A DNA stretch of 64,000 nucleotides from Eledone cirrhosa (Eukaryota): the NCBI GenBank assembly GCA_964016885.1, contig OZ024742.1, forward strand, positions 280,116,001-280,180,000. Direction: 5' to 3'. Below the pieces are notes generated by a model that saw only the letters and a list, made by a program, of their open reading frames with translations, had not been told where the DNA came from and did no database searches. Below, one piece after another: positions 2,794 to 63,978 of this stretch (its first letter is position 1; each line of letters opens with the position of its first letter). The translations under genes and the position numbers were made by a program.

Positions 2794-4053
2794 AATTGGG
2801 GGTTGGTCGTGGTATGTAGAAAATCTACATGCGCAAAATGATTGATTAAAAGCTAGAAATAGGAAAGATATTCTGAGATAGCGATCCCCGATTTTCAACC
2901 CGCTCAGTGTGGATGATACTTGGAGATGATATTGATAAAGATGAAGATGTGGCTTTAAGAAATCTATGAATGATTAATATGCTTTTGTTTAAAAAAAACT
3001 ACAAAACATACACGAAGTTCGGTAAAGGAAAGGCGTGGAAGTATATAATTAATTGCAATAGAAAAAAAATATCTCTGTTTCCACGCTAGTAAGGGTGCCC
3101 TTCATTGAAGTTGTGAAATTAATTTAAAAACAAATACTTGAAATCTATCCTTACCGTCTTAAAAAAAAATTATTTAAGTTGGGCTAATCTATCCAAATAC
3201 GTGGCGGAGACTGAACAAAATCTGAATCTATAAAACAAATTATATGACAAAACTGGACCTTTAAATTACACGTACAATCCATCCTATGTTTGAAAGTTTC
3301 GGTGTACACAAATTCATTTACAAGCCTTGGATAGACATATGATGTCTTGTAGTGGAGTCGAACAAGGAGACGTGGTTAATGCAAAGTGAACCTCGTGCTT
3401 AATGTAAAGCGAACCTCTGAACCACTCAGCCATGCCTAAAATTGTTTACTAGGTACATTAGGGCATTTGGAAATGTAATGCGATGGTGATAAGGAAAATT
3501 GTTTTTACAGTCGAAAACTAGATAAACAACTGATAAATGATTATAATTAGCAAGCTCGCGCTTGGGTCTTTTCTCGCCCCTATCCTCGAGCAGGTTCATT
3601 TTAAACCACCGAATTTATTATAGGCAATTTGACAGAAGCACAGAGAGAGATAGAGGGAGATGGGAAAGGGGAGGAGAGAGTGCTTGAAACGCATTCATAA
3701 AAACAGGCACAAACACTCAAATGTAGGTATACCTACTCATACGCACAAATTAAAACACAAGCATACAAACATACACATACACACACGCACACATATTTAT
3801 GTCTCTCAATCGCTTTCTCTCGTCGTGTATATATATATATATATAGTATTAAGGGTACTATTTATGGTTATGTATGCAATAAAACCTTTGATGGTAATAT
3901 ATTATATATACACAAACCCTAAATAGTGAGTGATATTCATTAATCACTATCCTATTACCAGTAAGATAAATAGCTCAATGTAATAACATCAGTTGTTTTA
4001 CAGAGCAGTTATATAGAGATTACAGTAATCAAAGTTCAGTTTAAGTCATTTAT

Positions 4054-4102
4054 TTGCTTACAATTGTTTCCTCCAAACCGAGGTTTGGATTCTTCGGAGC
4101 AA
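4054..4102 (-). ncRNA. Type I hammerhead ribozyme (CCGAAGA core variant)
   Basis: Reverse-complement copy of 4909-4957. Confidence 0.65.
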
Positions 4103-4908
4103 CTATTTATAACATACTTGACCTCCTTTTCAACCCAAGAGACGCATAAAACATATGCGCATATTGATCAACAGTGGGGTGACATTCGTCAAATGATATA
4201 GCATGGCAATTTACATATAAAGGTTACAGGATAAAAATAAAATAAAATAAAAACAAGAGTGAAAATAGGACAGCATGATATATTAATTAAGAACCGACTG
4301 GATACGGTTTATAGCTTGACTATATGCTGAACCACTGCGAATTATACGATAGACGCGTGTTCTCTATATATATATTGCGTCTCATGGATTATGTGAGTGG
4401 TGGTGTGAGCAAGGACAGTGGTACGACCTTGCCTACGATACAATAAGGTTTATAGTATGTTGAAGGTTTTTGATATTTTGGTGTTTCCCCGCATCCGAGA
4501 CTGTATATCATACAGATGTATGAGAATAAATGACTTAATAATTCAGCCTATATAATAAGATCGATTGCCTGCTTCAACTGCCTGACCCTGCAAATATCAT
4601 TCTGACGCACTCTAATCATGTATAGATAAGACACGCGTGCATGCTACACGGGAGATTGTTTCATACACTGACTACTCTAAGCTTTCCTCTTGCTTTATCT
4701 TCATAGACTGCCAACGCTTCATGTTTATCTTTATTTTCACTCTTATTTTCACTCTTGTTTTTATTTTATTTTATTTTTATCCTGTAACCTTTATATGTAA
4801 ATTTCCATGCTATATCATTTGACGAATGTCACCCCACTGTTGATCAATATGCGCATATGTTTTATGTGTCTCTTGGGTTGAAAAGAAGGTCAAGTATGTT
4901 ATAAATAG

Positions 4909-61765: not shown

Positions 61766-62009
61766 ATATATATATATATATATATATATATATATATATA
61801 TATATATATATATATATATATATATATATATATATATTTATATATATATATATATTTATATATATATATATATATATATATATATTTATATATATATATA
61901 TATATATTTATATATATATTTATATATATATATATATATTTATATATATATATATATATTTATATATATATATATACATACATATATATATATATATATA
62001 TATGAATAT

Positions 62010-63978
62010 ATAGGAAAAAGTATGACCCCGACGGCAGAGCCCGAGCCGTTTTGACGGCTATTTCTGGACTAAATTGGAATTTTTAGCCTGGTGAATAAAT
62101 AGCCGAACTTTTCGAGGGGGTACTTCCTTATATGGAAGATTGTGGTTGTCAAGAGGATTGTTTAAAGTTTGTTGTAAACACAAATAAGACTATCATGGCA
62201 TTTGGTGGGAGGTAGGGGAGGCGCAACAGCAGATTCTAAGAATAGAGTATGAAGTGGAGGAGGGAGGTTATAGAATAGGTAAATCGAATGAGAGTAGGAG
62301 ACAATAAAAGATAATAGAAATAAATAAAAAAAAATTATAAAATTAGATAGTGAAAAATGAATAAAAAAAATCACAATGCTATCTTACAATTACATGTTAA
62401 GTTGAGAATAGAAAAAACTTGTAGAAATTCAGTAGTACCAGAACTAATACAGAATTAAAGGGGTTTAACACGTCTGCTATAAGTAGTTACTAAAACGTAT
62501 TCGACCAATTCTATCTTAAGATTACAGGGGTGAGGGAACTGATGCTACAGAGGCTCGATGGGCTGCATCGGGGTAGAGGAAGGGGAAAAGCAGACAAGGA
62601 AGAAAATAGGGGGTGACAGGAAGTGATAGGATGAGACAGGCGGAAGAAGAAGACAAAGAGAAAAAAGAAAAGAAAAGAGATACATCTACCTATGTAAGCT
62701 GGGTTTTCCCCTAACTTACCTCGCCCTTAAACCCCATAACGATCCGGGTCGTTAAAAGGTTTGAAGGCGAGGTAAGTCCTACGCAATCTGTGTTTGCATG
62801 CGGTTACCAGTTCCTCTTTCTTGTTTAGGAGTTGGTCCTTCGAAAACAGCATTTGGAATGTTTCCTCCAAGCATAAGTTACACGGACGGCGTCCTCCCGT
62901 GTAAGAGTTACCTTTGGACAGTAAGCTCCAAGTGAGATTGTAGGTTATATTATTGTCTTGGAGGTCCTAGATGTGGCCCGAAAGTGTAGTGGCTTGTCGC
63001 CGGACCGGGTTTCGGAAAGGAACTGGTAACCGCATGCAAATACAGATTGCGTAGGACTTACCTCGCCATCAAACCTCATAACGACCTGGATGGATATAAT
63101 GGGGCTGATACCCCTACTTGCCGAAAAAGTTAGGGGAAACCCCAGCTTACTTAGGTAGATTTATCTCTTTTCTTTTCTTTTCTTTTCTTTTCCTCTTTGT
63201 CTTCTTCCCCGTCTCATACTATCACTTCCTTCCACCCCCTATTTTCTTCCTCGTCTGCTTTTCCCCTTCGCCTACCTCGATGCAGCCCATCGGGCCTCTG
63301 TAGCATCAGTTCCCCCACCCCTGTAATCTTAAGATAGAATTGGCCGAATACGTTTTACTAACTACTTATAGTAGACGTGTTAGACCCCTTTAATTCTGTA
63401 TCAGTTCTGGTACTACTCAATTTCTACAAGTTTTTTCTATTCTCAACTTATTAACCTGTAATTATAAGATAGCATTGTGATTTTTTTTATTCATTTCTCA
63501 CTATCTAATTTTATATATTTTTTTATTTATTTCTATTATTGTTATTGTCTCCTACTCTCATTCGATTTACCTATTCTATAACCTCCCTCCTCCACTTCAT
63601 ACTCTATTCTTAGAATCTGCTGTATACATATCAGCTTCAACGCTTGACAGCTCCTGTCATTCCCCTATTGTTCTACAGGCAAGTTCCGCCACCCCTACCA
63701 CCCACCAAATGCCATGATAGACTTATTTGTGTTTACAACAAATTTTAACCAATCCTCTTGACAACAACAATCTTCCCAAATAAGGAAGTACCCCCTGGAA
63801 CATTTCAGCTATTTATTCACCAGGCTAAACATTTTAATTTAGTCCACAAATAGCCGTTGAAACGGCTTGAGCTCTACCGTCGGGGTCATACTTTTTCCTA
63901 TTTCCCACTCTACTACCTTAAGTATTGAGCACTCTGGTGCGTTATGGTCCATCTGGTTCTTTACCACATCTCCTTCGT
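62010..63978. mobile_element. Inverted two-arm insertion of PLE family A (parent-length copy)
   Basis: Arms about 62010-62815 and 63018-63901 plus tail to 63978. The spacer on the minus strand translates as RQATTLSGHI*DLQDNNITYNLTWSLLSKG..CNLCLEE..LLNKKEELVTACKHR, a GIY-YIG C-terminus missed by the ORF track. Confidence 0.9.

What the first reader, a model, noticed from the sequence alone, without database searches (positions are those of the whole stretch)
3845..63978. One asymmetric tail-out architecture in about 14 independent (TA)n insertions
Seen: insertions at 3845, 14313, 15208, 17552, 30362, 30801, 31127, 34792, 35374, 36495, 44135, 52519, 58884 and 62010 consist of two oppositely oriented 3'-end arms pointing outward. 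One arm stops at an internal TA-containing site, and the other runs roughly 30-165 nt further. Where a family recurs, the end points recur. Established: PLEs make inverted, 5'-truncated insertions with 3' tails. Inference: both ends of a break in (TA)n prime cDNA at two fixed, family-specific positions (programmed twin priming), and the two cDNAs are joined by microhomology.
Basis: partly seen in the sequence, partly recalled or inferred. Interest (0 to 1): 0.75.

Follow-up and report, generated by a model that had tools for sequence, protein, structure and literature searches.

The report
Twin-primed Penelope insertions, one-sided tails
These mirror-image inserts in TA repeats are the clipped ends of Penelope-like jumping genes in a layout already described for this class, and nearly every two-armed copy has one short and one long end, likely because the two cut DNA ends each start copying the element's RNA at one of two set points.

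Summary
The 14 insertions belong to 10 families of Penelope-like elements (PLEs), mostly Hydra clade by protein motifs. Twelve have clean short (S) and long (L) ends; two are off-site. Across 450 genomic loci plus the window, 668 of 670 microsatellite-flanked ends are S or L, 25-165 nt apart by family. Of 179 inverted pairs, 172 are S/L (chance 49%). Raw reads from two other samples show the same two ends for one family. The S arm is the deeper one in 37 of 70 resolved junctions, which excludes simple fold-back for those. Paired arms share rare variants, pointing to one source. Limits: 71 of 200 decidable ends have no partner arm, junction microhomology is only modestly above null, and priming itself was not tested. 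The layout is in print (PMC3846280, PMC8557442), as are two RT start sites in vitro (PMC11167929). My searches found neither the S/L pairing rule nor the small hairpin 3' of both ends in Hydra families. This scan reported both before, in this genome and others. Verdict: known architecture, new members, useful mechanistic support.

The parts
3846..5006 (.). Family F01 (Hydra-type): L arm on the left (164-nt tail), S arm on the right
   Evidence: ORF of relatives
14317..15121 (.). Family F02, about 530-nt tandem unit: S arm on the left with an internal read-through copy, L arm on the right (tail 111-116 nt)
15208..15672 (.). Family F03 (Hydra-type): 51-nt S arm on the left, L arm on the right (tail 160-165 nt); hammerhead-like motif near 15353
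17552..17746 (.). F14-group mini insertion: S on the left, L on the right against (CA)n
17962..20559 (+). F09-family element with Hydra-type RT fragments (18409-19161) and an S end at 20559; no partner arm found, left boundary approximate
30361..30778 (.). Family F05, about 320-nt tandem unit: L on the left (tail 25-36 nt), S on the right
30802..34459 (.). Family F06 (Hydra-type, broken RT/EN ORF 31333-32520 on +): S on the left, L on the right (tail 62-65 nt); hammerhead-like motif near 34308
31128..31237 (.). F14-group mini insertion nested in the F06 insertion; the L arm covers only tail positions +29 to +77, the S arm -63 to 0 (arms do not overlap)
34792..35167 (.). Family F08: S on the left, L on the right (tail 90-97 nt), palindromic centre near 34948
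35375..36426 (.). Family F09: L on the left (tail 88 nt), S on the right
36492..36629 (.). F14-group mini insertion: S arm -64 to 0, L arm +7 to +77 (arms do not overlap)
44135..44305 (.). F14-group mini insertion: L on the left; right end about 37 nt short of S (off-site, probably eroded)
52521..58463 (.). Family F12 (Hydra-type): two multi-kb arms (S arm 3155 nt, L arm 2679 nt plus 114-nt tail), both with RT-EN coding sequence; junction near 55673
58882..59119 (.). F13-related subfamily (Neptune/Penelope-type): S on the left, long end 45 nt past S (15 nt short of the F13 L site)
59226..61761 (+). One-armed, 5'-truncated F13 element with RT and GIY-YIG fragments, ending at S; hammerhead-like motif near 61560
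62004..63977 (.). Family F14 (Hydra-type): S on the left, L on the right (tail 77 nt)
63907..63931 (+). CTCY...GAGC hairpin motif just 3' of the S site (example; a second copy lies 3' of L in read-through copies)
   Evidence: sequence; motif test

Best explanation
These are head-to-head insertions of 5'-truncated Penelope-like elements in (TA)n, and they likely form when both DNA ends of a cut in the microsatellite prime reverse transcription on the element's RNA, one end at the short site and the other at the long site. Shown: two end points per family; both lie inside the transcribed unit, because copies read through L into the 5' UTR or ORF; both carry 2-11 nt that match (TA)n; two-armed copies pair S with L; arm depths vary independently; the arms share rare variants. 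Inferred: the GIY-YIG endonuclease cuts both strands. Inferred: two protein copies, in Hydra families probably placed by the two CTCY...GAGC hairpins, each start one cDNA. Inferred: the L-primed cDNA either stops before S or runs past it by strand displacement or on a second RNA from the same source. Inferred: the two cDNA ends are joined bluntly or through 1-7 nt of overlap. If only one end is primed or survives, a one-armed copy results.
For: 668 of 670 TA-flanked ends are S or L; 366 of 390 lie within 3 nt of S and 269 of 278 within 4 nt of L. 172 of 179 pairs are S/L at all insertion sizes. Raw reads of two other samples show TA loose ends at exactly S (3803 and 3605 reads) and L (6112 and 6927 reads) for F14. 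Read-through copies continue past L in F14, F01, F12, F03, F02, F05 and F13. The S arm is deeper than the L arm in 37 of 70 resolved junctions, so in these neither arm can be a fold-back copy of the other. In 24 cases the L arm ends inside the tail, next to a non-overlapping S arm, as in one-RNA twin priming. Non-majority alleles are shared within an insertion at 0.11-0.50 against 0.01-0.19 for unrelated copies in 9 families (F08 had one pair and 0). The strict hairpin motif begins within 9 nt of 10 of 15 non-F13 sites, against 15 of 861 control TA sites. In vitro, a Poseidon PLE cuts and extends both strands from two RT start sites that bracket the tail, and it is modelled as a dimer (PMC11167929).
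Against: 71 of 200 decidable ends have no partner (47 S, 24 L). True exceptions exist: L303 is S/S and L309 is L/L, and signature rescue added 3 L/L and 1 S/S among 49. Junction overlap only modestly exceeds the null, and 50 of 120 junctions were unresolved. Both arms often cover the same 1-3 kb of RNA, which a single RNA explains only with strand displacement. Shared variants could also come from gene conversion between arms. The hairpin is absent from F05 and F13, strict in 0 of 21 F03 and 1 of 32 F02 S sites, and was defined after seeing these sites. PMC11167929 saw no difference in start-site use between top and bottom strand, so the source of the S/L exclusivity is not shown.
Confidence: 0.68

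Rival explanations
1. Both arms start at L, or the intermediate carries the tail twice, and the endonuclease then cuts one arm at S while resolving the intermediate (the explanation offered in PMC8557442).
For: S sites are TA-rich like the target. The paper proposes EN-mediated resolution. It would also give S/L pairs and shared variants.
Against: L/L pairs, expected when trimming fails, are 1 of 179. One-armed S copies outnumber L 47 to 24. RT initiation at both tail boundaries was seen directly in vitro.
Confidence: 0.13
2. Dual priming on two separate RNA molecules, one engaged at S and one at L, usually from the same source locus.
For: Arms overlap by 1-3 kb in several insertions. Many pairs share no non-majority allele. 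Dual priming is proposed for L1 (PMC2837659).
Against: Allele sharing within insertions is well above control. L arms that stop within the tail fit collision on one RNA. Two free RNAs give no reason for S/L exclusivity.
Confidence: 0.12
3. Fold-back self-priming: one cDNA, or an antisense template, hairpins and copies itself (PMC3846280 discussion).
For: Palindromic centres in F08 and some others. The L arm is deeper in 25 of 70 junctions, which this model allows.
Against: In 37 of 70 junctions the S arm holds sequence missing from the L arm while the L arm holds the tail. Non-overlapping arm pairs exist.
Confidence: 0.04
4. Later deletion of the tail by slippage between the internal TA at S and the flanking array, or amplification of ready-made palindromes from a few master copies.
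For: S contains TA. Off-site ends at 44135 and 59119 suggest some erosion. Two F05 loci share a junction.
Against: Deletion predicts random S/S, L/L and S/L mixes and ends at other TA runs; observed 172 of 179 S/L and 2 of 670 mid-tail ends. Junction positions differ among nearly all 70 resolved insertions.
Confidence: 0.03

Closest known systems
Endonuclease-bearing PLE insertion unit with inverted pLTR and one-sided tail (Pen2a_Av, PMC3846280; Fig. 2 legend of PMC8557442)
   Same: Inverted 5'-truncated copy, tail at one end, tandem read-through copies, hammerhead-like motifs in the pLTR, microsatellite targets.
   Different: Tails here are 25-165 nt, against 30-40 bp in print. S/L pairing is quantified here (172 of 179). 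Target-site duplications cannot be read in (TA)n.
Hydra clade of C-terminal EN+ PLEs (PMC8557442 section 11; Hydra-1_Obim and Hydra-1_Amil rows in its supplement)
   Same: RW motif, DKT, CxCx5C linker, no CCHH, (TA)n insertion; RT motifs match by eye.
   Different: Units are 3.1-4.3 kb, against generally under 3 kb. No canonical hammerhead pattern was found near S in F01, F14, F09 or F05. The hairpin 3' of both ends does not appear in the passages read.
PAc (Poseidon, Anolis carolinensis) internal RT initiation, PMC11167929
   Same: Two internal start sites bracket the tail; AT-rich target; both strands cut and extended; arms run through the hammerhead.
   Different: [quoted passage not shown] Hydra sites here lie in the 5' UTR and match (TA)n by 2-11 nt. 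Pairing within one insertion was not reported.
L1 twin priming and dual priming (PMC2837659; bioRxiv 10.1101/2024.08.27.596794)
   Same: Both nicked ends prime cDNA; head-to-head joint with short or no microhomology; internal deletion or duplication at the joint.
   Different: The second L1 primer anneals at variable positions by chance complementarity. Here both sites are fixed and close, and the arms overlap by up to kilobases.
Animal non-LTR retrozymes (bioRxiv 10.64898/2026.07.22.740005)
   Same: F02 (about 530 nt, hammerhead-like motif) and F05 (about 320 nt) are short tandem units with no ORF seen in the unit.
   Different: They show the same S/L inverted insertion rule as coding families. 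F05 lacks the hammerhead pattern. Circular RNA was not tested.

Membership tests
EN+ Penelope-like elements | Single ORF with PLE-type RT and GIY-YIG endonuclease | tested here: met
   785-aa frame in L386 (F12) with RT core YRDD and a C-terminal YYVG EN region. F13 fragments hit RVT_1 (E 5e-4) and GIY-YIG (E 2e-4), both below curated cut-offs. Hydra-type proteins hit no Pfam family and no PDB chain. No ORF was seen for F02, F05 or F08.
EN+ Penelope-like elements | pLTR from partial tandems, inverted 5'-truncated copy, one-sided tail | tested here: met
   Tandem units in L355, L365, L386, L418, L350; 172 S/L pairs.
EN+ Penelope-like elements | Hammerhead ribozyme in the pLTR | tested here: inconclusive
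   A CTGANGA...GAAA pattern lies 80-210 nt upstream of S in F02, F03, F06, F08, F12 and F13, and not in F01, F14, F09 or F05. No hammerhead family among the 150 listed of 189 Rfam hits. Cleavage not tested.
EN+ Penelope-like elements | Target-site duplication | not testable with these tools
   Flanks are (TA)n; no empty sites were obtained.
Hydra clade | RWK and DKT motifs, CxCx5C linker, no CCHH in EN | tested here: met
   F12 has RWK, DKT and CNCTYPDNC; F01 has RWR, DKT and CNCRSSRTC; F14 has RWR and DKT; F03 has DKT and CNCHLPDKF (last C missing in that copy). No cysteine pair between the GIY and YIG equivalents (definition). F06 and F09 were assigned from RT fragments of 38-39% identity to F12.
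Hydra clade | Insertion into (TA)n | tested here: met
   670 of 782 ends are microsatellite-flanked, mostly TA.
Hydra clade | Placement in the clade by RT phylogeny | not tested
   Only by-eye comparison with supplement alignment rows.
Neptune or Penelope/Poseidon clade (F13) | CCHH-type EN, cysteine linker, tail inside the ORF start | tested here: inconclusive
   IRC...C...YIGET and upstream cysteine pairs in 60565-61248; ATG about 20 nt upstream of S. No phylogeny, so the clade name is an inference.
L1-type twin priming | Poly(A)-primed first cDNA and a variable internal second primer | tested here: not met
   Both start points are fixed internal sites. It works like twin priming but is not the L1 process.
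Non-LTR retrozymes (F02, F05) | Tandem units each with a type I hammerhead; circular RNA | tested here: inconclusive
   Tandem read-through in 19 F02 and 37 F05 ends; pattern present in F02 only; RNA not testable.

The most novel reading that the evidence does not exclude
PLE integration is a programmed two-ended reaction: a protein dimer binds two copies of a small CTCY...GAGC hairpin on one RNA, each subunit primes one DNA end a few bases 5' of its hairpin, and this alone produces the inverted pLTR and the one-sided tail, with the tail length set by the hairpin spacing (62-165 nt in the families that carry it).
Probability: 0.45. Interest if true: 0.65.

Novelty: new member of a known kind. 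Interest (0 to 1): 0.42.

Why it matters
How PLEs build inverted ends and tails is called open in PMC8557442 and only partly answered in PMC11167929. A near-absolute S/L pairing rule across 10 families, with a candidate RNA signal at both sites, gives a direct in vitro test. It also gives a simple rule for setting PLE boundaries in annotation. The elements themselves are ordinary, very abundant repeats.

Tried and rejected
Rfam scan: only microsatellite-driven miRNA-type hits below gathering scores. Pfam and PDB gave nothing for Hydra-type proteins. The first end classifier gave false mid-tail calls from TA runs inside tails and was corrected. The first all-vs-all BLAST timed out. The first junction analysis failed because its library contained inverted arms; it was redone with single-strand natural units, where F09, F03 and F06 stayed mostly unresolved and F08 and the F14/F09 minis were left out. 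The S-signature rescue for F05 gave false S/S calls from AT-rich matches and was dropped. A family-agnostic scan found 220 asymmetric and 28 symmetric TA-to-TA inverted intervals out of 248; several symmetric ones are internal TA runs or two neighbouring insertions, the rest were not resolved, and the scan is noisy. No RNA holder listed. Empty orthologous sites were not obtained. No random genome sample was analysed, so frequencies come from the best-matching copies and their neighbours. Assembly artefact was rejected for F14 by raw reads.

Full report
Setting. The window lies in a 3.0-Gb genome (G000:C3:280116001-280180000), is 35% GC and dense in (TA)n. Self-BLAST and direct reading show outward-facing inverted arms at all 14 positions. 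They fall into 10 families; five insertions belong to one group (F14). Twelve of 14 have one end at the family's short site S and one at its long site L. The insertion at 44135 ends about 37 nt inside S, and the one at 58882 ends 15 nt short of L.

What the elements are. Tandem copies gave whole units of 3.1-4.3 kb for F01, F03, F12 and F14. Their proteins carry RW, DKT and a CxCx5C linker and lack CCHH, the definition of the Hydra clade; they resemble the Hydra rows of the paper's supplement by eye. F06 and F09 RT fragments are 38-39% identical to F12. F13 has a different, CCHH-type endonuclease with weak Pfam RT and GIY-YIG hits; calling it Neptune-like is inference. F02 and F05 are short tandem units with no ORF seen. 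In the Hydra units the first ATG lies downstream of L (F12 +165, F14 +170, F01 +212 from S). In F13, S and L lie inside the ORF start.

End points. I ran 11 genome searches, ten of them with inner-arm queries that do not select the end type and one with the tail. I extended 120 unresolved loci to 5.5-8 kb, out of 201 listed. In 451 sequences (2.04 Mb) there are 782 distinct ends: 390 S, 278 L and 2 mid-tail against microsatellite, 74 read-through, and 38 unclear or at an edge. 366 of 390 S ends lie within 3 nt of S, and 269 of 278 L ends within 4 nt of L. Read-through copies show that both sites are internal to the unit and that each has 2-11 nt matching (TA)n. Raw reads from two other samples give TA loose ends at S in 3803 and 3605 reads and at L in 6112 and 6927 reads for F14. 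In the subfamily at 58882 the long end scatters over about 15 nt.

Pairing. Of 179 inverted pairs, 172 are S/L, 6 S/S and 1 L/L; chance would give 49% S/L (P about 1e-44). Two S/S calls join different insertions 6.8 and 13.7 kb apart. L341 has matching flanks and may be a later duplication. L002 is eroded at both ends. L303 (S/S) and L309 (L/L) are real exceptions. L405 was not inspected. A looser signature search added 45 S/L, 3 L/L and 1 S/S. Among central hits of inner-arm queries, 200 of 281 could be decided: 129 two-armed (123 S/L) and 71 without a partner in 5 kb or more (47 S, 24 L); 60 were not examined beyond 1.7 kb and 21 were not terminal (counts are per end). 28 of 78 partnerless arms have (TA)5 or more at their 5' end, against 11% background, so many one-armed insertions are genuine.

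Junctions and templates. 70 of 120 junctions were resolved. Overlap was 1-2 nt in 20, 3-10 nt in 25, over 10 nt in 4, and zero or negative in 21; median 2 against 1 in simulated blunt joints (P=0.044). The S arm is deeper in 37, the L arm in 25, and 8 are similar. When the S arm is deeper, neither arm can be a copy of the other, so each was templated on its own. In 24 of 207 otherwise unpaired S ends, an L arm stops inside the tail, as at 31128 and 36492. Paired arms share non-majority alleles at 0.11-0.50 against 0.01-0.19 for other copies; gene conversion could contribute. Several insertions have both arms over 1 kb, so one RNA would have to be copied twice. That PLE RT lacks RNase H and could displace a strand is recalled, not checked here.

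Candidate signal. It begins within 9 nt of 10 of 15 non-F13 sites under a strict pattern and 12 of 15 under a relaxed one, against 15 and 56 of 861 control TA sites. Across tail-bearing copies it is present at S in F14 73 of 84, F01 15 of 15, F09 29 of 36, F12 11 of 12, F06 20 of 26 and F08 17 of 24; it is absent or variant in F02 1 of 32, F03 0 of 21, F05 0 of 65 and F13 0 of 36. The pattern was set after seeing the sites, and single-sequence folds did not consistently form it.

Literature. PMC3846280 (passages) describes a 31-bp tail at one of the inverted pLTRs and favours self-priming. PMC8557442 (abstract, passages, sections 11 and 15, supplement look-ups) shows the 30-40 bp tail often at one end, (TA)n targeting and the Hydra clade, and attributes the tail to EN resolution. 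PMC11167929 (parts 1-2 of 4) shows two RT start sites that bracket the tail, with both strands cut and extended. Twin and dual priming were read as passages in PMC2837659 and bioRxiv 10.1101/2024.08.27.596794; the retrozyme preprint as part 1 of 5. Searches found no statement of the S/L pairing rule or of the hairpin. The library lacks most subscription papers; Evgen'ev and Arkhipova 2005 and Arkhipova 2006 were not seen, nor the supplements of PMC11167929 or of the preprints.

Verdict. A real and general feature, known in layout, with new family members and good genomic support for two-site priming (confidence 0.68). The same reading was reached in earlier notes of this scan on this and other genomes; those are not independent evidence. 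Interest 0.42.

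Noticed in passing
F14 group; L017:1690-1715; window 17552, 31128, 36492: Most F14 arms stop 50-69 nt upstream of S (44 of 60 non-deep S arms, 33 of 44 L arms). Raw-read depth rises steeply across L017:1690-1737 and strand-switch joints cluster at 1702-1708. This may mark the RNA 5' end, with priming on the 5' copy of the two sites, or a strong stop.
   Followed up: partly
one-armed copies in L331-L450: One-armed insertions end at S twice as often as at L (47 against 24), which may mean S priming comes first; undetected very short L arms could also cause it.
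   Followed up: partly
neighbours in L001-L450: Many further families show the same offset layout, with recurrent offsets near 40, 45, 65-67, 77, 88-91 and 96-101 nt.
   Followed up: no
window 14317-15121 and 30361-30778; L151-L180, L211-L240: F02 (about 530 nt) and F05 (about 320 nt) are tandem units with no ORF seen that read through L into the next unit, like retrozymes, yet follow the S/L rule.
   Followed up: partly
window 49631-51820 (-): LINE-type RT frame (RVT_1, E 2e-31) between long TA-rich arrays; a 307-bp direct repeat lies upstream at 48337-48643 and 48853-49159.
   Followed up: no
window 9979-13256 (+): Fragmented Penelope-type ORF (weak RVT_1 hit) with Thr/His-rich tandem repeats at 10900-11295.
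   Followed up: no
window 24689-26379: ORF fragments with a weak zf-AD hit (E 7e-4), possibly a decayed DNA transposon.
   Followed up: no
window 37100-39700 (-): GC-richer fragments that look like a LINE endonuclease and RT by eye.
   Followed up: no
window 45788-47805: About 62 copies of a 31-34-nt CAA/CAC-rich minisatellite.
   Followed up: no
window 16240-16390, 23170-23744, 26980-27220, 28430-29200, 45090-45277: A dispersed SINE-like repeat of 70-180 nt, partly in tandem.
   Followed up: no
window 57044-57136: Perfect 46-nt tandem duplication that breaks the endonuclease frame in one arm of the F12 insertion only.
   Followed up: no
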